Assembly: GCF_000010065.1 (NCBI RefSeq)
Contig: NC_006576.1
Location: 1,770,001 to 1,802,000, forward strand
DNA: 32,000 nucleotides
Source of the DNA: Synechococcus elongatus PCC 6301
GTDB taxonomy: Bacteria; Cyanobacteriota; Cyanobacteriia; Synechococcales; Synechococcaceae
Reading direction: 5' to 3'
Part shown: positions 1 through 8,426 of the stretch, one piece after another
Position numbering within the stretch: the stretch's first letter is position 1
Layout: each line of letters starts with the position of its first letter
The notes under the pieces: generated by a model
What the model saw: the letters and a program-made list of their open reading frames with translations, nothing else
What the model was told of the DNA's origin: nothing
Database searches by the model: none
Translations under genes and position numbers: made by a program

Positions 1-198
1 GCCTTTACGAGCGCGACTTCGAGCACCCGTTGTCTTCCTCGGAACCGCGATCGCGGTCGAAGCTGTCTATGATCGAAAAGTGATCTTTAACCTCTTCTTC
101 CAAATCTGAGCTGCTAACTTTTGGCAAGCTCAAGAAAAGATGAGAGGCCTGACCACGCAAGGTCCGATACTCTATCGACGGTGCAGGGGGGGAGCACA

Positions 199-450
199 AT
201 GTTGCAGGATACAGATACCGTTCGCCACTATCAGCGGCTGACCGACGCCATGGTGCAATTGTGGGAGCGTGGTTATCGGCCTGATGACATTCGCCTCTAC
301 ATCGAAGGCTACTTGGCCGCCCTGCGCCAAAACGGCAGCATTGAAGCCTTTTGGCTGCACCGCCTCGAAGAGCAGGTGATTCGTTTCCTTTACGATCCCT
401 CCAACTTTGAGGTCTATCCCTACCCGCAAGCCCAACGCGATCGCTACTAA
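199..450 (+). CDS. Small conserved hypothetical protein (83 aa), cyanobacterial type
   Basis: ATG at 199 sits 5 nt downstream of a G-rich SD-like run (GGGGGGGAG, 186-194). The ORF track's longer form starts at a TTG at 121 and has an implausible N-terminus. The sequence from MLQDTDTVRHYQRL onward looks like a real folded protein. I recognise no catalytic motif. Confidence 0.55.
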   Translation: MLQDTDTVRHYQRLTDAMVQLWERGYRPDDIRLYIEGYLAALRQNGSIEAFWLHRLEEQVIRFLYDPSNFEVYPYPQAQRDRY

Positions 451-618
451 ATTCAGCTGCGCTGATCGACACGAATGTTGCCCATCTTCTAGAGCTGGCT
501 TGAAGGCGGAAACAGTGCCTATTGCTATTCAGCTCGTGGGGGTCAGTCTTTGGTCACTGCTGCATCGGGACGAATTCCTATCGATAATGCAAGGGCAGGG
601 TCTGGATTTAGGTTGCGC

Positions 619-1317
619 ATGGATCGACAGCAACAGCTTCGTCGCCTTCAGGGAGGTCTGATTGTTTCCTGTCAGGCACCTGCGGATTCTCCCCTGCATC
701 AGCCAGAGATCATTGCCGCGATCGCAGTCGCAGCAGTTCAGCGTGGAGCTGTGGGCATTCGCTTGGATACGCCTGAACATGTGCGTGCCGTGCGCGATCG
801 CCTACCGGAAACACCAATTATTGGCCTCTGGAAACGTACCTTTCCCGATAGCTCGGTCTACATTACGCCCCGCTACGTCGAAGCAGAAGCGATCGCGGCG
901 GCCGGAGCCGACATTGTTGCCTTGGATTGCACCCTGCGCCCCCGCCCGGATGGCGAGGATTTTTGCCAAATCATTCCGCGCCTTCAGCAAGAACTCGGCT
1001 GTGCCGTGATGGCCGACATCGACACTCTAGAAGCAGCGATCGCGGCTGCCAAGGCAGGAGCTGATTTAGTCGGAACCACGCTCTACGGCTACACGGAAGC
1101 TACTCAGGGGCAAACCCCGCCGGGCTGGGATCTGTTAGAGACCGCCGCTCAACAATTGCCCAATACACCCGTGATCTGCGAAGGGGGAATTGCCAGTGCT
1201 CAAGCTGCCCGCCAAGCCTGCGATCGCGGCGCGTTTGCGGTTGTTGTCGGAACGGCGATTACAGGCATTGATCTGCAGGTCCAAGCCTACGTGACAGCTC
1301 TCAATGCAAGGCCCTAG
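619..1317 (+). CDS. nanE: Putative N-acetylmannosamine-6-phosphate 2-epimerase (NanE family, TIM barrel)
   Basis: Starts at the internal ATG at 619 (MDRQQQLRRLQGGLIVSCQA...). NanE-like signatures include GGLIVSCQA, GAVGIRL, IIGLWKR, DIVALDCT, ADLVGTTLYGYT, ICEGGI and VVVGTAIT. Confidence 0.78.
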   Translation: MDRQQQLRRLQGGLIVSCQAPADSPLHQPEIIAAIAVAAVQRGAVGIRLDTPEHVRAVRDRLPETPIIGLWKRTFPDSSVYITPRYVEAEAIAAAGADIVALDCTLRPRPDGEDFCQIIPRLQQELGCAVMADIDTLEAAIAAAKAGADLVGTTLYGYTEATQGQTPPGWDLLETAAQQLPNTPVICEGGIASAQAARQACDRGAFAVVVGTAITGIDLQVQAYVTALNARP

Positions 1318-1413
1318 ATTGTCACTCAGATTATCTTCAAGGGGGACCCCCCCGCGCTAGGATGCTTTAGCCCTTGGTTGTTGGGCAAGCTTTTTCGGTA
1401 AGAGGATCCGTCG

Positions 1414-3959
<2,546 letters not shown>

Positions 3960-3998
3960 ATACTCCTCTGAGTGAGCCCTCCTGCCTGCAAGCTGAAG

Positions 3999-4020
3999 TG
4001 AACAGTCTTGGCACTGTTCA
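3999..4020 (+). terminator. Stem-loop after the kinase gene (TGAACAG-8 nt-CTGTTCA)
   Basis: Perfect 7-bp stem 40 nt after the stop codon. There is no U-tract, so terminator function is uncertain. Confidence 0.3.
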
Positions 4021-4047
4021 GCCAAATTGAAGAGGCGATCGCGGCGC

Positions 4048-5481
4048 ATGAATCAGAAGCTGAGTCGGTACCCTAAATCCTCTTGGGCTTATGTGGTGAT
4101 CGCTTGTCCGATCGCGATCGCGCTAATTTTCAGCAGCCCTGTCAAAGCGAAGCTACCGCTGGGCGATCGCCTGACCTGGGGAAATGCCGTCACAGAAACT
4201 AGCCCTGCTTACCGACAGGCACTCAACCAAGCGAAGACCTTTCGGATGCCGGCTGAATTTGAACCGATCACCTCAATTTGGATGGCCTATCCAACCTACG
4301 AAAACCAGGCGGGTTATCCTTCTCAGACTGTTCAGAAGGCGATGGTAAAAGCGATCGCACCAACAGTCAAAATTGACTTTCTTCTGAATGAACCTGAAGA
4401 AAAAGTGATCATCAATGGTTGGCTCAAAACCGCAGGGATTCCAGCTAGTCAAGTCCGCTATCATTTGGTTCCCCATGAGGATCTCTGGATTCGAGATATG
4501 GGGCCAATCTTTGCGGTAAATGCTGATCAAACTCAAGTCGTTGATTTTGGTTTTAATGCTTGGAGTTATCTCGCAGCAACTGATCCAGCAGCAATGACAG
4601 ATGAACAGGTTGATCGCAAGGTCGCTGGTGATCTTGATCTTCCTATCTTGCGATCGAGCTTGATTAGTGAGGGTGGTAATCGGGAATTTAATGGTAAAGG
4701 CACATTGATGCTGACCGAAGCCGTTGAGCTACAGCGCAATCCAGGACTAACTAAGGAGAAGATTGAAACTGAACTCAAACGAGTCTTCAATCTCAAGAAA
4801 GTGATTTGGCTTCAGGAAGGTGTAATTGACGATGAACTGTCTTATCGTGGCAAGTTGCCAGATGGGAGCCTGACAGTGCTTGCAACGGGTGGTCATATTG
4901 ATGAGTATGCGCGGTTTGTTGATTCAAATACAATTTTATTGGCGGAAGTGACCGCAGAAGAAAGAGCTTCCGATCCGCTAGCAGCTATTAATTATCAACG
5001 GCTCGAGGAGAACTTAAAAATTCTGCAGGCTGCGACCGATCAGGATGGCAAGCCCTTCCGAATTGTTCGGATTCCTGCAGCTAAACCCATTTACGTGAAC
5101 ATGACTAAAGAGGATGCTGTCTTTCAAGCTCTGCAAGAACTCACCTTTGAAGATGGAACAGTCATTCAAGATGACGATCAGATCAAAACAATTTTGGCGG
5201 CTAGCTATCTCAACTTTGTGATCGCCAATGATGTTGTGATTGTCCCAAGATACTGGCAGCCCGATCGCAATTTGGAATATCAGCAAAAAGACCAAGCTGC
5301 CTTAGCTGCTTTTCAGTCGGTATTCCCCAACAAAAAGATCGTGGCGATCAATCCGGAAAATATCAATGCTGGGGGTGGGGGTATGCATTGCATCGTTCAG
5401 CAGCAAGCCGTGGTGGATGCAGTAGCTCGATCCCTCAGCACTGGGGCTGGCGATCGATCCAAGAGTAGAAGCAACCTATAA
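4048..5481 (+). CDS. Exported agmatine deiminase / Porphyromonas-type peptidyl-arginine deiminase family protein
   Basis: ATG at 4048 is preferred over TTG at 4027, with GAAGAGG upstream. The N-terminus has a signal-peptide-like segment (SSWAYVVIACPIAIALIFSSPVKA). Family motifs: MPAEFEP..IWMAYP, WIRDMGPIF, EGGNREFNGKGT, and the catalytic-Cys motif GGGGMHCIVQQQ. Confidence 0.8.
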   Translation: MNQKLSRYPKSSWAYVVIACPIAIALIFSSPVKAKLPLGDRLTWGNAVTETSPAYRQALNQAKTFRMPAEFEPITSIWMAYPTYENQAGYPSQTVQKAMVKAIAPTVKIDFLLNEPEEKVIINGWLKTAGIPASQVRYHLVPHEDLWIRDMGPIFAVNADQTQVVDFGFNAWSYLAATDPAAMTDEQVDRKVAGDLDLPILRSSLISEGGNREFNGKGTLMLTEAVELQRNPGLTKEKIETELKRVFNLKKVIWLQEGVIDDELSYRGKLPDGSLTVLATGGHIDEYARFVDSNTILLAEVTAEERASDPLAAINYQRLEENLKILQAATDQDGKPFRIVRIPAAKPIYVNMTKEDAVFQALQELTFEDGTVIQDDDQIKTILAASYLNFVIANDVVIVPRYWQPDRNLEYQQKDQAALAAFQSVFPNKKIVAINPENINAGGGGMHCIVQQQAVVDAVARSLSTGAGDRSKSRSNL

Positions 5482-5603
5482 GAACGCCCATCTAGCCCTC
5501 AGAAGCTTAAGCCGCAACAAGCTTTCGTCATAAACCTTACTCAATATGGGAAGATGACAGGCAGATATTGTGCTTTTTAGTCCCAGCGAAGCTGGATCTG
5601 TCA

Positions 5604-6878
5604 ATGAACCTAAACCTCAGCACTCCGAGTGACGTTATTGTGGCTGAGGCTCTCAAGCGCTTCTCTAAACGAGAACTAGCTAAGCACCTCGGGAAAGATC
5701 CCCGTATCATCACTGCTTTTCAGAGAGACGGAGTGGATGAGACTTACAAAATGGCTCTGCTTTACCTTCTGCAGAGCAACACTCCTCGTCCTAATCAAGG
5801 TAAAAAGCATGACTTTACTTTCATAGATCTGTTTGCTGGTATTGGCGGAACTCGGATGGGTTTCGAACGTGCCGGTGGAAAATGTGTATTCACGTCAGAG
5901 TGGGATACCTCTGCCCAAAAAACCTATCGAGCTAATTTCTCAGTTGATGAGCATCCCATCATCGGTGATATTCACGAGATTACAGTCGAAGGAAAATGGG
6001 ATCTCTTACCAGAGCATGACGTTCTTGTAGCTGGATTCCCTTGTCAGCCGTTTTCTATCGCCGGTGTCAGCAAGAAAAACTCGCTTGGAAGGGCTCATGG
6101 CTTTGCATGTGATGCTCAAGGCACACTCTTTTTTGATATCGCAACCATTATTGAAAGAAGACGACCCAAGGCCTTTTTGTTAGAAAATGTCAAAAACCTA
6201 ATGAGTCATGACAAGGGAAACACTTTTCGTGTTATCAAGAATGTTCTTGAGGATGAGCTTGGCTATAAGATTTACCCAAAAATAATTGATGCAAAAGGGT
6301 TTGTCCCTCAACATAGAGAACGTATCTATATTGTTGGCTTCCGAGAAGAGGTTGGCTTCAACTGGGATTCTTTCTCGCAGCCGCCTACTGATACAAAATG
6401 CATGGCCGACATCCTTCATCCTAATGATGGCAGCGAGGAAGTTGAGGAACCTTATACAGTTGGGATAGAGGCTAAAGTTAATGACAAATATACCCTAAGC
6501 GATAAGCTCTGGAATTACTTGCAAAACTATGCGAATAAACATCGAGCGGCTGGCAACGGCTTTGGTTTTGGTCTTGTCAACAAGGACAGTATTGCCCGGA
6601 CTCTTTCTGCTAGGTACTACAAGGATGGATCTGAGATCTTGGTTGATCAAGGCAAGGATAAGAATCCGCGACGCCTAACCCCTCGAGAATGCGCCCGTTT
6701 AATGGGCTTTGATAGTTCTGAGCATAAGTTCAACATCGTTGTTGCTGACACACCAGCCTACAAACAATTTGGAAACTCAGTTGTAGTACCGGTCATTACT
6801 GAAATTGCTCACACCATGAAGCCGAGCATAATACAACTAAAGGAGAGATATATTCGGCAAATTTCATTAGCCATCTAA
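5604..6878 (+). CDS. DNA (cytosine-5)-methyltransferase, Dcm/EcoRII-SsoII family, with N-terminal HTH-like extension
   Basis: All the m5C methyltransferase motifs are present: I FIDLFAGIGG, IV GFPCQPFS, VI ENVKNL, VIII QHRERIYIVGF, IX RRLTPRECARLMGF, X QFGNSVVVPV. The stretches GVSKKNSLGRAHGFACDAQGTLFFD and RTLSARYYKDGSEIL closely match E. coli Dcm as I recall it. ATG at 5604 is preferred over TTG at 5568. Confidence 0.95.
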   Translation: MNLNLSTPSDVIVAEALKRFSKRELAKHLGKDPRIITAFQRDGVDETYKMALLYLLQSNTPRPNQGKKHDFTFIDLFAGIGGTRMGFERAGGKCVFTSEWDTSAQKTYRANFSVDEHPIIGDIHEITVEGKWDLLPEHDVLVAGFPCQPFSIAGVSKKNSLGRAHGFACDAQGTLFFDIATIIERRRPKAFLLENVKNLMSHDKGNTFRVIKNVLEDELGYKIYPKIIDAKGFVPQHRERIYIVGFREEVGFNWDSFSQPPTDTKCMADILHPNDGSEEVEEPYTVGIEAKVNDKYTLSDKLWNYLQNYANKHRAAGNGFGFGLVNKDSIARTLSARYYKDGSEILVDQGKDKNPRRLTPRECARLMGFDSSEHKFNIVVADTPAYKQFGNSVVVPVITEIAHTMKPSIIQLKERYIRQISLAI

Positions 6879-7074
6879 AAGCTTGATTGTTTATGGCGTT
6901 TTGATATCTGTTGAGCCAAATACTACCATTCAGTTAGTGCGAAAGCATTTTACTGTATACAGACTTGAAAGCTATGTAAAGAAAGTGCCAAAATAAGCCC
7001 AGCAACAATCTAAACGAAATACAAATAACTTCATTGAATAATCATGACCAAAAAGCTTTTGGCAATTTAAACCT

Positions 7075-8163
7075 CTAATTCTCATGACGTTGTAGGTACC
7101 TAGGTAGATTTCCACTGCGAGAGAAGTTACACATGTCGTCAATGAATCTAGATAAAGGACGATAAAGCATATCTTGCCTCCGTGTTGTCTGTATTATGCT
7201 GTTAGCAGATAATGCTTCATAAGTTACATCTGGCATGTATATTGCCAGCGGACCAGCTGCTAGAAGTGTCTGTGTTCGATCTGGATTAAACTCATCGGGA
7301 TCCAAGAAAAAGCCGACTGCAACCTTATCTGGATGGGGAATGTCCTGAATACCTCTTAGCAGTCTTTCTCGAGCCGCATAACTTTTCACTTCGCAGTAAA
7401 GAATTTTTGTAGAATTTTGTGCTCGACATTCTACTTGGAGGTCACCTTCACTGTTATTTCCTGTCTTTTTGAAATTCTGACCCAGAACCATCCCAGCGTT
7501 TTCTAGACCGCGAATGAGTATTTTTTCGTTTATCCCTCCAGCTCTGGAGATAATGCCATTGTCAGACTCATGTACAAAGTCGACATAATTCTCGTAGAGG
7601 GAATTGATTAGTTGATTTTTGGAAACCCTAATCGTTTGCCCATCTTCTTCAAGATAACTCTGAAGAAGCCCCTCGATAAACTTATAGTGCTTCGGCTTCG
7701 TAATAGCATCTATAGTCCGCTTACAATGAGCATTGATTTCGAATAAGTTTTCTCCGGTCACCAAACCAATTTCTGTCTCTGCCAAAGCAACGACTGTCTC
7801 TGCTTTAGGATAAAAGCCAATTATCCTAGGAATATCATTAGGATATTGGTGAAGGTGTTCTCTTAGATAATTATCAACTGTTCCAGGCGTTACCTTGAAG
7901 AGGTTATAGATATCCTCGACATCTATTGCTCCAATATTTTCCGCTAAAAAGCTAGAAATTTCCTCAGAATAATTAACTGGATATACTCCAGTCACTTTGG
8001 CTTTTGCATTCGGATTCGCATCGAGATAGTTCTTTAGATGCTTCCTTACTGTTCCTTGGCTGACATTAAAAAGTTCATAGATATCCTTAGCATGAACAGG
8101 TTCATCATGTGTTCTTAGAAACGTGGCAATTTTTTGTGCATAGTCATAACGAGTTCTAGACAT
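7075..8163 (-). CDS. Putative restriction endonuclease: two tandem HTH-like modules plus a C-terminal PD-(D/E)xK nuclease core
   Basis: Convergent with the methyltransferase gene across a 196-bp AT-rich spacer. Candidate catalytic motif is E199/D241 ... E258-V-K260 (SEGDLQVECRAQNSTKILYCEVKS). Residues ~13-66 and ~68-122 are a clear internal duplication (DIYxLFxVxxGTVxxxLxxxLxxxPN...GxYP). The ORF itself is solid. The nuclease function is an inference. Confidence 0.6.
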   Translation of the reverse strand: MSRTRYDYAQKIATFLRTHDEPVHAKDIYELFNVSQGTVRKHLKNYLDANPNAKAKVTGVYPVNYSEEISSFLAENIGAIDVEDIYNLFKVTPGTVDNYLREHLHQYPNDIPRIIGFYPKAETVVALAETEIGLVTGENLFEINAHCKRTIDAITKPKHYKFIEGLLQSYLEEDGQTIRVSKNQLINSLYENYVDFVHESDNGIISRAGGINEKILIRGLENAGMVLGQNFKKTGNNSEGDLQVECRAQNSTKILYCEVKSYAARERLLRGIQDIPHPDKVAVGFFLDPDEFNPDRTQTLLAAGPLAIYMPDVTYEALSANSIIQTTRRQDMLYRPLSRFIDDMCNFSRSGNLPRYLQRHEN

Positions 8164-8302
8164 ATCTGAGCATTAAAACGTTTGGAAGAGTCTAGGCGCC
8201 AAAAACGGACTTGTCAATGGCTAAGCTAGAACTATTTGAATAGATATCGATTGTCCACTTCACACAACACGAAAGTGCTTGTGGCTTTATCCAATTTAAG
8301 AA

Positions 8303-8389
8303 CGGAGAGGGTGGGATTCGAACCCACGTCGGCTGTTACCCCGAACCTCATTTCGAGTGAGGCGCATTCGACCACTCTGCCACCTCTCC
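8303..8389 (-). tRNA. tRNA-Ser (anticodon CGA), 87 nt, CCA not encoded
   Basis: I folded the reverse complement by hand. It gives acceptor GGAGAGG/CCTCTCC, a 3-bp D stem GCA/TGC, an anticodon stem CCTCA/TGAGG with loop CTCGAAA, a long variable arm (class II), a T arm GTGGG-TTCGAAT-CCCAC, and discriminator G. Confidence 0.93.
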
Positions 8390-8426
8390 AGGTGCTTAGC
8401 CATCTTACAACCGAACCCCCTCAGAA

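What the first reader, a model, noticed from the sequence alone, without database searches (positions are those of the whole stretch)
7075..8163. Nuclease candidate with an unusual architecture: duplicated HTH-like modules fused to a PD-(D/E)xK core
Residues ~13-66 (ATFLRTHDEPVHAKDIYELFNVSQGTVRKHLKNYLDANPN...GVYP) and ~68-122 (SSFLAENIGAIDVEDIYNLFKVTPGTVDNYLREHLHQYPN...GFYP) are an obvious internal duplication. It is even visible at DNA level (TCATAGATATCCT at ~8078 and TTATAGATATCCT at ~7903). Each copy has a helix-turn-helix-like pattern (LFxVSxGTVRxxL). The C-terminal half has a plausible PD-(D/E)xK site: E199, D241 and E258-V-K260 (codons 7384-7392, verified on the minus strand). I do not recognise this layout from the CCWGG/CCNGG enzymes I know (EcoRII, PspGI, SsoII/Ecl18kI, MvaI). 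It may therefore be a new restriction-enzyme family. Alternatively it could be a nuclease whose tandem wHTH modules serve as a sensor or controller, or a non-R-M defence effector paired with a methyltransferase.
Basis: partly seen in the sequence, partly recalled or inferred. Interest (0 to 1): 0.72.

Follow-up and report, generated by a model that had tools for sequence, protein, structure and literature searches.

The report
Divergent PspGI-like restriction enzyme with HTH add-on
This gene of the cyanobacterium Synechococcus elongatus most likely encodes the DNA-cutting half of a restriction-modification system: a previously unclassified, distant relative of the CCWGG/CCNGG-cutting enzymes PspGI, Ecl18kI and EcoRII, with one extra (here duplicated) small DNA-binding-type domain at its front end.

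Summary
ORF 7075-8163(-) encodes 362 aa with a real internal duplication (res 10-62 vs 67-119, z~18). D241, E258 and K260 are (near-)invariant in ~180 homologues. E199 is not conserved; the helix glutamate is E213.

The claim of an unrelated new family does not hold. AlphaFold models (pLDDT 92-94) hit PspGI and Ecl18kI as the only significant PDB matches (E 1e-5 to 6e-5; TM 0.5). All CCGG-family motifs align in register: S206-x2-G-x3-E213, G-D241, K260, R265-E266-R267 and D274. Profile-profile comparison gives E 1.2e-4. No Pfam, NCBIfam or PADLOC model detects the family.

Residues 121-362 correspond to a whole PspGI-like enzyme. Residues 1-120 are two wHTH-like modules; 92 of 94 module-bearing homologues have only one.

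The convergent neighbour is a Dcm-type C5 methyltransferase. 15 of 16 related loci carry its orthologue, and the sixteenth carries an N4/N6 methyltransferase. Published RB-TnSeq tables call the methyltransferase (Synpcc7942_2460) essential, while SynR (2459) tolerates insertions. That pattern is expected if the nuclease is active.

Best reading: an active Type II restriction enzyme, probably CCWGG-specific. It is a new variant of a known kind. The role of the wHTH modules is unresolved.

The parts
7075..8163 (-). synR ORF (Synpcc7942_2459; 362 aa plus stop): putative Type II restriction endonuclease
   Evidence: ORF listing. Exact match to the S. elongatus protein named SynR in UniRef. The gene order 2458 comE / 2459 / 2461 in RB-TnSeq tables matches the window.
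7978..8145 (-). wHTH-like module, copy 1 (res 7-62). This is the extra, lineage-restricted copy. It keeps the family's basic helix-3 residues R40, K41 and K44.
   Evidence: Pfam HTH_DeoR above its cut-off and HTH_11 just below. Module HMM E 1.8e-16. Homologues of about 300 aa lack this copy. Helix-3 comparison.
7798..7974 (-). wHTH-like module, copy 2 (res 64-122). This is the positional orthologue of the single module in other family members. Its helix 3 has D97, N98 and R101 where the family has K/R, K and K/R.
   Evidence: Alignment A1. Module HMM E 1.3e-22. pLDDT about 96. Column composition.
7498..7803 (-). Helical N-subdomain of the PspGI-like body (res 121-222; helices 121-132, 137-170, 182-222). 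It contains conserved P157, F162 and N202 and the S206-x2-G209-x3-E213 motif.
   Evidence: AF2 secondary structure. The domain-only model aligns over 270 columns to the 258-residue PspGI chain. hhalign register.
7525..7548 (-). Motif S206-R-A-G209-G-I-N-E213. It equals 'SRAGxxxE' of EcoRII (E271), Ecl18kI (E125) and PspGI (E105) and carries the catalytic helix glutamate.
   Evidence: Known sequences. hhalign. G209 is 100% and E213 94% conserved.
7441..7446 (-). G240-D241: the '(P)D' catalytic aspartate
   Evidence: Aligns to PD299 of EcoRII. D in 167 of 168 homologues.
7342..7392 (-). E258-V-K260-SYAA-R265-E266-R267-LLRGIQ-D274. This block holds the catalytic Lys, the R-(D/E)-R CC:GG-recognition motif and the downstream acidic residue.
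   Evidence: Aligns to EcoRII K324 / K328-D329-R330 / E337, to Ecl18kI K182 / R186-E187-R188 / E195 and to PspGI K160 / R164-E165-R166 / E173. K260, E266 and R267 are 99% conserved. The motif is defined in PMC6344858.
5568..6878 (+). Cognate Dcm-type C5 cytosine methyltransferase (Synpcc7942_2460), convergent with synR. The likely real start is the ATG at 5604. Its N-terminal region aligns with the Xre-like HTH region of M.Ecl18kI.
   Evidence: PF00145 8e-87. PRK10458 446 bits. 51% identity to E. coli Dcm and 50.5% to M.Ecl18kI, with a shared TRD. Called essential in S. elongatus. The ATG at 5604 is inferred from the translation.
8189..8217 (-). Best sigma-70-like promoter match upstream of synR (TTGACA-17-TAGACT)
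   Evidence: Consensus scan, 10 of 12 matches. Function not shown.
8302..8390 (-). tRNA-Ser(CGA), at the high-coordinate edge of the low-GC island that carries the R-M genes
   Evidence: ARAGORN. GC 0.39-0.50 across about 4000-8300 against 0.55-0.60 in the flanks.

Best explanation
SynR is the restriction endonuclease of a Type II restriction-modification system. The system was acquired horizontally on a low-GC islet next to tRNA-Ser.

Residues 121-362 form a complete, very divergent member of the 'CCGG family' of PD-(D/E)xK enzymes (PspGI / Ecl18kI-SsoII / EcoRII-C). The parts are:
- a helical N-subdomain carrying the catalytic helix glutamate (E213);
- a catalytic core with D241 and K260, with E258 and/or D274 as the further acidic residue;
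- an R265-E266-R267 motif at the start of the helix after K260, which in this family reads the CC:GG halves of the site from the major groove.

The convergent Dcm-type C5 methyltransferase protects the host genome. Unmethylated incoming DNA is cut. The most probable target is CCWGG (CCNGG or a longer site containing it is possible). By family analogy the cut would fall before the first C.

The N-terminal wHTH-like module is an add-on to the PspGI-like body, comparable in position to the N-terminal effector domain of EcoRII. It is present once in most of the family and twice here. Its job is not shown; effector or second-site DNA binding, or extra specificity, are possible.

Shown here: the fold, the motifs, the methyltransferase linkage, and the essential-M / dispensable-R pattern. 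Inferred: the target sequence, the cut position, dimeric action, base flipping and the role of the wHTH.
For: Fold. The full-length AF2 model (pLDDT 92.1, pTM 0.82) gives PspGI 3bm3 (E 1e-5, prob 1.0) and Ecl18kI 2gb7 (E 5.9e-5, prob 1.0) as the only PDB hits below E 0.1. The 121-362 model (pLDDT 93.6) again gives PspGI first: E 1.9e-5, TM 0.53/0.50, 270 columns on a 258-residue chain.

Motifs. Extended hhalign alignments place E213, D241, K260, RER and D274 on EcoRII E271, D299, K324, K328-D329-R330 and E337. With a 150-sequence profile the comparison gives E 1.2e-4 over 162 columns. N202 (N or Q in 89% of homologues) falls on EcoRII N260, Ecl18kI Q114 and PspGI Q94, the minor-groove G-contact position.

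Conservation. G209 is 100% conserved. D241, K260, E266 and R267 are 99% conserved in about 180 homologues.

Genomic context. 15 of 16 related loci from Alpha-, Beta-, Gamma- and Zetaproteobacteria carry an orthologous Dcm-type methyltransferase (53-64% identity), and 11 also carry Vsr. The Bacillota locus instead has an N4/N6 methyltransferase next to a homologue with intact motifs.

Methyltransferase type. The methyltransferase shares the Dcm/M.Ecl18kI TRD and has the Dcm-type 8-aa insertion after the PCQ motif. Close plasmid relatives of it pair with EcoRII-like, MvaI/BcnI-family or HNH nucleases.

In vivo genetics (literature). Synpcc7942_2460 is 'essential' in the Rubin et al. dataset as tabulated in PMC5464585. 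Genes 2459 and 2461 have RB-TnSeq fitness values, while 2460 is absent from the tables.

Site frequency. CCWGG is at 0.50 of its Markov expectation in the host part of the window, against 0.74 for CCSGG.
Against: - No biochemical datum exists for this protein or any homologue.
- Sequence-level support is modest. There is no hit to Pfam EcoRII-C (PF09019) even at E<=1. PDB sequence searches found nothing. hhalign with the 30-sequence profile gave only P = 0.024.
- The rmsd to PspGI is high (about 8 A) although TM is about 0.5.
- The arginine that displaces the flipped central base in Ecl18kI (R116), PspGI (R96) and EcoRII (R262) aligns with I204 (L/V in the family). The central-base mechanism may therefore differ.
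- There is a one-residue insertion between K260 and the RER motif.
- Overall methyltransferase identity does not separate CCWGG from CCNGG (51.4% vs 50.5%).
- GGWCC is as depleted as CCWGG (0.52), so the site-avoidance signal is not specific.
- Essentiality of the methyltransferase could have another cause.
Confidence: 0.8

Rival explanations
1. SynR has the same nuclease core but works as a two-site (Type IIE/IIF-like) or extended-specificity enzyme. On this reading the N-terminal wHTH module binds DNA, either a second copy of the site as an allosteric effector or flanking bases. This would be analogous to the N-domain of EcoRII or the CAP-like domain of NaeI. In S. elongatus the duplicated module would have subfunctionalised.
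For: Residues 121-362 already account for a whole PspGI-like enzyme, so residues 1-120 are an add-on in the position that the effector domain occupies in EcoRII. The module has a wHTH fold. Its third helix has a conserved basic pattern, TV[KR]K[HY]L[KR]. Copy 1 keeps R40, K41 and K44, whereas copy 2 has D97 and N98. Many CCGG-family enzymes need two sites (PMC6344858).
Against: DNA binding by the module has not been shown. About 200-aa relatives with the core only exist. Roughly half of the detected relatives lack the module, so it is dispensable for the core function. No coordinates were available to see how the module sits relative to the DNA-binding cleft.
Confidence: 0.3
2. The wHTH modules make SynR its own transcriptional controller, that is, a C-protein-like function fused to the nuclease that delays or limits nuclease expression.
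For: Copy 1 passes the Pfam thresholds for repressor-type HTH families (HTH_DeoR, HTH_5). A strong promoter-like site lies just upstream.
Against: The methyltransferases of this clade already carry an N-terminal Xre-like HTH region that aligns with that of M.Ecl18kI/SsoII. From established knowledge, that region is the transcriptional regulator of those systems. No operator-like repeat was identified upstream of synR. The module is missing in many relatives.
Confidence: 0.12
3. SynR is a decayed or non-restriction protein, for example an inactive remnant, a repair nickase replacing the missing Vsr, or a plain DNA-binding protein. On this reading the methyltransferase is effectively an orphan.
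For: No activity data exist. The S. elongatus locus lacks the vsr gene found in 11 of 16 related loci. Two related loci (L010, L012) already contain an intact EcoRII-like nuclease next to the same methyltransferase, so the SynR homologue could there be an accessory.
Against: All catalytic and recognition residues are intact in SynR and about 99% conserved across distant taxa. A horizontally acquired methyltransferase that is essential while its neighbour is dispensable is what an active nuclease predicts. Most loci have a SynR homologue as the only nuclease next to the methyltransferase, and most also keep Vsr, so SynR is not a Vsr substitute.
Confidence: 0.07

Closest known systems
PspGI (Pyrococcus; cuts before the first C of CCWGG; PDB 3BM3)
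   Same: It is the best structural match for both models (E 1e-5 and 1.9e-5; TM about 0.5), covering nearly the whole PspGI chain. The motif order is shared: SRxGxxxE, (P)D, K, RER, then E/D seven residues after the RER.
   Different: Sequence identity is about 14%. SynR has one or two extra N-terminal wHTH modules. It has a canonical E at K-2 (E258), where PspGI has T. There is a one-residue insertion between K and RER. I204-I205 stand where PspGI has R96-F97. PspGI pairs with an N4 methyltransferase (PMC2532716 abstract), whereas SynR pairs with a C5 Dcm-type enzyme.
Ecl18kI / SsoII (cuts before the first C of CCNGG; PDB 2FQZ, 2GB7)
   Same: It is the second significant structural hit (E 5.9e-5, 290 columns). 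It has the identical R-E-R triplet. Its methyltransferase partner belongs to the same C5 family, shares the TRD and has an N-terminal HTH region.
   Different: Ecl18kI has S at K-2 and relies on E195. It has the R116-R117 pusher residues and W61 in the flipped-base pocket (PMC6344858). It has no wHTH add-on. M.Ecl18kI lacks the Dcm-type 8-aa insertion that the S. elongatus methyltransferase has.
EcoRII (Type IIE, CCWGG; PDB 1NA6, 3HQG)
   Same: The overall logic is the same: a PspGI-like catalytic domain preceded by an extra N-terminal domain, paired with a Dcm-type methyltransferase (often with Vsr). EcoRII-like genes sit next to orthologues of the same methyltransferase clade (L010, L012, L017, L019). 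The catalytic and recognition motifs align.
   Different: From established knowledge (marked as such), the EcoRII N-domain is a B3-like pseudobarrel, not a wHTH. SynR gives no Pfam PF09019 hit. Whether SynR is autoinhibited or effector-dependent is unknown.
NgoMIV / Cfr10I / SgrAI / PfoI and other CCGG-family enzymes
   Same: They share the permuted PD...K...D/E active site and the R-(D/E)R recognition helix, as defined in PMC6344858. PfoI shows that family members can be undetectable by sequence.
   Different: Those enzymes read uninterrupted CCGG with flanking bases (PfoI reads TCCNGGA) and have other methyltransferase partners. None appeared among the significant Foldseek hits.

Membership tests
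CCGG-family Type II restriction endonucleases (PspGI / Ecl18kI-SsoII / EcoRII-C; Pfam PF09019 group) | Restriction-endonuclease-like alpha/beta core plus helical N-subdomain, superposable on PspGI/Ecl18kI | tested here: met
   Foldseek against the PDB finds only PspGI and Ecl18kI as significant hits (E 1e-5 and 5.9e-5, prob 1.0). The domain-only model gives TM 0.53/0.50 to PspGI.
CCGG-family Type II restriction endonucleases (PspGI / Ecl18kI-SsoII / EcoRII-C; Pfam PF09019 group) | Active site E(helix)...(P)D...K...(D/E) (PMC6344858) | tested here: met
   E213, D241, K260 and D274 align to EcoRII E271, D299, K324 and E337. Conservation is 94-99% for E213, D241 and K260. D274 is D in 91 of 165 homologues. 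SynR also has the canonical E258 at K-2 (E in 122, S in 56).
CCGG-family Type II restriction endonucleases (PspGI / Ecl18kI-SsoII / EcoRII-C; Pfam PF09019 group) | R-(D/E)-R motif at the start of the helix following the catalytic Lys (reads CC:GG) | tested here: met
   R265-E266-R267 is present. R/K265, E266 and R267 are conserved in 179 of 180 homologues. The motif is in register with RER of Ecl18kI and PspGI and KDR of EcoRII, with one extra residue after K260.
CCGG-family Type II restriction endonucleases (PspGI / Ecl18kI-SsoII / EcoRII-C; Pfam PF09019 group) | N/Q residue contacting the guanines from the minor groove | tested here: inconclusive
   N202 (N in 91, Q in 35 of 142 homologues) falls on EcoRII N260, Ecl18kI Q114 and PspGI Q94 by sequence register. 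No DNA complex is available to confirm the contact.
CCGG-family Type II restriction endonucleases (PspGI / Ecl18kI-SsoII / EcoRII-C; Pfam PF09019 group) | Arg that displaces the flipped central base (Ecl18kI R116, PspGI R96, EcoRII R262) in the pentanucleotide-reading subgroup | tested here: not met
   The aligned positions are I204-I205, and the family consensus there is L-V.
CCGG-family Type II restriction endonucleases (PspGI / Ecl18kI-SsoII / EcoRII-C; Pfam PF09019 group) | Aromatic residue forming the flipped-base pocket (W61 / F64 / Y226) | tested here: inconclusive
   Conserved F162 (with Y160 nearby) lies close to the position aligned with EcoRII Y226. That part of the hhalign alignment is low-confidence.
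CCGG-family Type II restriction endonucleases (PspGI / Ecl18kI-SsoII / EcoRII-C; Pfam PF09019 group) | Detectable by the family's sequence model (Pfam EcoRII-C, PF09019) | tested here: not met
   No PF09019 hit at E<=1 for SynR. No Pfam or NCBIfam hit for 10 distant relatives. Profile-profile comparison reaches only E 1.2e-4.
CCGG-family Type II restriction endonucleases (PspGI / Ecl18kI-SsoII / EcoRII-C; Pfam PF09019 group) | Cleaves CCGG/CCNGG-core sites before the first C | not testable with these tools
   Needs in vitro cleavage and run-off sequencing.
Type II restriction-modification system | Nuclease gene adjacent to a DNA methyltransferase, with the linkage conserved across unrelated hosts | tested here: met
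   In the window, M (5568-6878, +) is convergent with R (7075-8163, -). All 16 related loci have a methyltransferase next to, or within 6 kb of, the homologue: 15 Dcm-type and 1 N4/N6-type.
Type II restriction-modification system | Methyltransferase indispensable while the nuclease is dispensable | tested here: met
   From published tables: 2460 is 'essential'. Gene 2459 has transposon-mutant fitness values and 2460 is absent from the same tables. The double-mutant test has not been done.
Type IIE enzymes (EcoRII, NaeI): separate effector-DNA-binding domain | Extra DNA-binding domain, and cleavage that depends on a second site | not testable with these tools
   An extra wHTH-type domain is present. 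Dependence on a second site is untested.
HTH transcription regulators (DeoR/ArsR/HTH_11 type) or C-protein controllers | HTH DNA-binding domain together with the family's effector/dimerisation domain and operator sites | tested here: not met
   Only the about 40-aa HTH segment of copy 1 matches. The rest of the protein is a nuclease. No operator-like repeats were found.

The most novel reading that the evidence does not exclude
The SynR family is a third, independent way of bolting a DNA-binding effector or specificity domain onto a PspGI-like CCWGG cutter: a wHTH module, where EcoRII uses a B3-like barrel. On this reading the module binds a second site or flanking bases and gates cleavage. 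In S. elongatus a recent tandem duplication would have split the roles, with copy 1 keeping the basic DNA-reading helix and copy 2 keeping the scaffold contact to the core. In addition, the family would handle the central W base pair without the arginine 'pusher' used by all known flipping relatives. Its mixture of ExK and SxK...D members would capture the active-site permutation of the CCGG family in transition.
Probability: 0.25. Interest if true: 0.6.

Novelty: new variant of a known kind. Interest (0 to 1): 0.45.

Why it matters
First, it assigns a mechanism-level identity to an unannotated 'hypothetical protein' in a major model cyanobacterium. S. elongatus PCC 7942 would carry an active restriction system, probably CCWGG-specific. 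Routine work would not see it because DNA from dcm+ E. coli is already protected. DNA from dcm- donors, PCR products used in conjugation or electroporation, and phage DNA would be targets. It also explains why a horizontally acquired methyltransferase scores as essential.

Second, it adds a sequence-undetectable branch to the best-studied model family for how related nucleases evolve new specificities. About 170 cluster representatives were found in 1.84 billion proteins. The branch has three features of interest to enzymologists:
- an N-terminal wHTH add-on;
- aliphatic residues in place of the base-displacing arginine;
- both canonical (ExK) and permuted (SxK...D/E) active-site versions within one family.

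Third, loci where a SynR-like and an EcoRII-like nuclease flank the same Dcm-Vsr pair illustrate nuclease swapping or stacking around one methyltransferase 'hub'.

Tried and rejected
- Sequence-family searches gave nothing for the nuclease part. Pfam, NCBIfam and PADLOC found only HTH hits on copy 1. Ten distant relatives also had no Pfam or NCBIfam family.
- PDB sequence searches with the protein and with the 30-sequence profile gave only chance-level hits.
- tblastn of SynR against 72,556 plasmids found no match.
- hhalign in global mode was meaningless. A single sequence, or the 30-sequence profile, against EcoRII-C gave weak statistics. Only the 150-sequence profile reached E 1.2e-4.
- I looked for an att-like direct repeat of the tRNA-Ser 3' end at the other island border and for operator-like repeats upstream of synR. 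Nothing convincing appeared.
- Literature searches for SynR, for Synpcc7942_2459 and for a CCWGG or Anacystis restriction activity found no characterisation. The original Rubin et al. 2015 paper is not held, so essentiality was taken from secondary tabulations.
- I recalled from memory that SecI (CCNNGG) comes from Synechococcus cedrorum and considered it as an alternative specificity. I set it aside because the methyltransferase TRD is the Dcm/M.Ecl18kI pentanucleotide type and its clade pairs with EcoRII and MvaI/BcnI nucleases. It was not tested further.
- P0176, a 6679-aa protein with 11 'matches' to the N-module, is an acidic low-complexity repeat protein and was discarded as spurious.
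- CCWGG under-representation (0.50) is consistent with the proposal but not specific, because GGWCC is equally depleted.
Full report
**1. The observation**

The ORF at 7075-8163 (minus strand) is real. It has an ATG start and encodes 362 aa. It is identical to a Synechococcus elongatus protein: Q31KD0_SYNE7, ABB58489 in PCC 7942, BAD79835 in PCC 6301. NCBI annotates it as 'hypothetical protein' and UniRef names it 'SynR'.

The internal duplication is far beyond chance. Residues 10-62 align without gaps to residues 67-119 at 19/53 identity. The BLOSUM62 score is 99 against 22.4 +/- 4.3 in 2000 shuffles.

Copy 1 passes the Pfam gathering scores for HTH_DeoR and HTH_5, and also matches HTH_11 just below its cut-off. 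Local Foldseek matches of the model are to the wHTH domains of NiaR, TM1602 and BirA.

D241 and K260 are conserved in about 99% of roughly 180 homologues. E258 is E in 122 and S in 56. The conserved helix glutamate is E213 (147 of 156).

**2. What the protein is**

Sequence libraries do not recognise the nuclease part (Pfam, NCBIfam, PADLOC, PDB sequences). Structure does.

An AlphaFold2 model built on 30 homologues is confident (pLDDT 92.1, pTM 0.82). In a Foldseek search of 350,542 PDB chains, the only two hits below E = 0.1 are PspGI (3bm3, E 1e-5) and Ecl18kI (2gb7, E 5.9e-5), both with probability 1.0.

A second model of residues 121-362 alone (pLDDT 93.6) again finds PspGI first: E 1.9e-5, TM 0.53/0.50, 270 alignment columns on a 258-residue chain. 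So residues 121-362 correspond to an entire PspGI-like enzyme, and residues 1-120 are an N-terminal addition.

The sequence motifs agree with the fold. I obtained the relevant stretches of EcoRII, Ecl18kI and PspGI from a PDB search with an EcoRII-like protein found next to a SynR homologue. The family hallmarks are described in PMC6344858. They line up as follows:

| Feature | SynR | EcoRII | Ecl18kI | PspGI |
|---|---|---|---|---|
| 'SRAGxxxE' helix glutamate | S206-R-A-G209-x3-E213 | E271 | E125 | E105 |
| (P)D | G240-D241 | PD299 | - | - |
| Catalytic Lys | K260 | K324 | K182 | K160 |
| R-(D/E)-R | R265-E266-R267 | K328-D329-R330 | R186-E187-R188 | R164-E165-R166 |
| Acid 7 residues after the motif | D274 | E337 | E195 | E173 |
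| N/Q 2 residues before the pusher position | N202 (N/Q in 89%) | N260 | Q114 | Q94 |

hhalign reproduces this register. Statistics were weak with the 30-sequence profile (P = 0.024). They improved to E 1.2e-4 over 162 columns with a 150-sequence profile.

I therefore regard SynR as a very divergent member of the CCGG family of PD-(D/E)xK restriction enzymes.

**3. Differences from the known members**

- There is a one-residue insertion between K260 and the RER motif.
- SynR keeps a canonical glutamate at K-2 (E258), where known members have S, T or A. A third of the family has S there. The family thus contains both the canonical ExK and the permuted SxK...D/E arrangement.
- The arginine that pushes out the central base in Ecl18kI (R116), PspGI (R96) and EcoRII (R262) is replaced by I204-I205, with L-V as the family consensus.
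- SynR has the N-terminal wHTH module.

**4. The N-terminal modules**

A module HMM finds the module in 94 of about 198 relatives. Only SynR and one 35%-identical protein (P0080) have two copies.

The roughly 300-aa homologues align to copy 2. About 200-aa relatives consist of the core only.

In the family, helix 3 of the module has a basic consensus, TV[KR]K[HY]L[KR]. In SynR, copy 1 keeps it (R40, K41, K44), whereas copy 2 has D97, N98 and R101. This suggests, but does not prove, a division of labour after the duplication.

The function of the module is not established. By position it parallels the EcoRII effector domain.

**5. Genomic context and partner**

The convergent neighbour at 5568-6878 is a C5 methyltransferase of the Dcm type:
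- PF00145 at 8e-87 and PRK10458 at 446 bits;
- 51.4% identity to E. coli Dcm and 50.5% to M.Ecl18kI;
- the same target-recognition region as those enzymes;
- the Dcm-type 8-aa insertion after the PCQ motif;
- an N-terminal Xre-like HTH region like that of M.Ecl18kI.

In 16 related genomic loci, 15 carry an orthologue of this methyltransferase (53-64% identity) beside the SynR homologue, and 11 also carry vsr. The hosts are Alpha-, Beta-, Gamma- and Zetaproteobacteria plus one Bacillota. The Bacillota locus instead has an N4/N6 methyltransferase directly upstream of a homologue with intact motifs. That kind of partner exchange is typical of restriction genes.

On plasmids the same methyltransferase clade is paired with EcoRII-like, MvaI/BcnI-family or HNH nucleases. 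This points to CCWGG as the shared target.

Two loci (L010 from Pseudomonas, L012 from Brevundimonas) have both an EcoRII-like nuclease and a SynR-like nuclease around one Dcm-Vsr pair.

**6. In vivo evidence from the literature**

The window's gene order identifies SynR as Synpcc7942_2459: ComEC = 2458, SynR = 2459, methyltransferase = 2460, PAD-type deiminase = 2461.

The methyltransferase 2460 is classed 'essential' in the RB-TnSeq essentiality set of Rubin et al., as tabulated in PMC5464585 S8. In genome-wide fitness tables, 2459 and 2461 have values and 2460 is missing.

A horizontally acquired methyltransferase that cannot be disrupted, next to a nuclease that can, is the expected signature of an active restriction enzyme. 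This evidence is indirect; the double mutant has not been reported.

**7. Specificity**

CCWGG is the most likely target, for these reasons:
- the methyltransferase has Dcm-type features;
- related loci carry Vsr;
- EcoRII and MvaI-family enzymes partner with the same methyltransferase clade;
- CCWGG stands at 0.50 of expectation in host DNA against 0.74 for CCSGG.

CCNGG, or a longer site containing CCWGG, cannot be excluded. Methyltransferase identity does not discriminate between the two, GGWCC is equally depleted, and the base-displacing residues differ from known enzymes.

**8. Verdict**

The protein is a restriction-type PD-(D/E)xK nuclease with HTH-type modules, paired with a Dcm-type methyltransferase. 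It is not an unrelated new family. It is a remote branch of the PspGI / Ecl18kI / EcoRII-C family that sequence-family libraries fail to detect, carrying a new N-terminal add-on that happens to be duplicated in S. elongatus.

Novelty: new variant of a known kind. Interest is moderate.

Noticed in passing
L010:2718-6873 and L012:4539-8585: In Pseudomonas paraversuta and Brevundimonas vesicularis, one Dcm-type methyltransferase plus Vsr is flanked by two different nucleases. One is an intact EcoRII-like enzyme (PF09019 at 4e-66 in L010). The other is a SynR homologue. This could be stacking or ongoing replacement of nucleases around one methyltransferase.
   Followed up: partly
window 6879-7074; loci L002-L004, L006, L010-L015: 11 of 16 related loci have a vsr gene directly after the methyltransferase. 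The S. elongatus locus has none: only 196 bp separate M and R. Without Vsr, deamination of m5C in CCWGG would go unrepaired. This could contribute to the 0.50 observed/expected ratio of CCWGG in the host DNA of the window.
   Followed up: partly
window ~4000-8300: A low-GC islet (0.39-0.50 against 0.55-0.60 in the flanks) abuts the 3' side of tRNA-Ser(CGA) at 8302-8390. It contains the PAD-type deiminase gene (4027-5481), the methyltransferase and synR. No integrase and no direct repeat of the tRNA end were found.
   Followed up: partly
window 5568-5810 (methyltransferase N-terminus): The first ~80 aa of the methyltransferase align with the Xre-like HTH region of M.Ecl18kI and the other clade members. 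The usual 'TIRRWE.GE' is degenerate here ('IITAFQRDG'). The ORF as listed starts at a TTG, and that exact sequence is not in the protein collection. An ATG at 5604 (MNLNLS...) is the more likely start.
   Followed up: no
homologue set (e.g. P0122, P0124, P0133, P0148): Distant relatives of about 200-330 aa have S instead of E at the K-2 position (SVKSxxARER). The shortest lack both the wHTH module and most of the helical N-subdomain. None has any Pfam or NCBIfam annotation.
   Followed up: partly
window 7761-7802: An imperfect 21-nt tandem repeat (81% identity) lies inside synR and encodes AETVVAL / AETEIGL (res 121-134), right after wHTH copy 2. The peptide pattern AETVIxLAExxxG is shared by homologues, so the repeat is probably old.
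   Followed up: no
window, host part (1-4000 and 8400-32000): GGWCC (the AvaII/SinI-type site) is at 0.52 of its Markov expectation, as depleted as CCWGG. This may hint at another present or past restriction system in this genome.
   Followed up: no
window 3445-3458 and 4163-4176: An identical 14-mer, GCGATCGCCTGACC, containing the cyanobacterial HIP1 palindrome GCGATCGC, occurs twice at the low-coordinate edge of the islet.
   Followed up: no
P0176: A 6679-aa acidic, highly repetitive helical protein gave 11 weak matches to the N-terminal part of the profile. This looks like a composition artefact rather than homology.
   Followed up: yes
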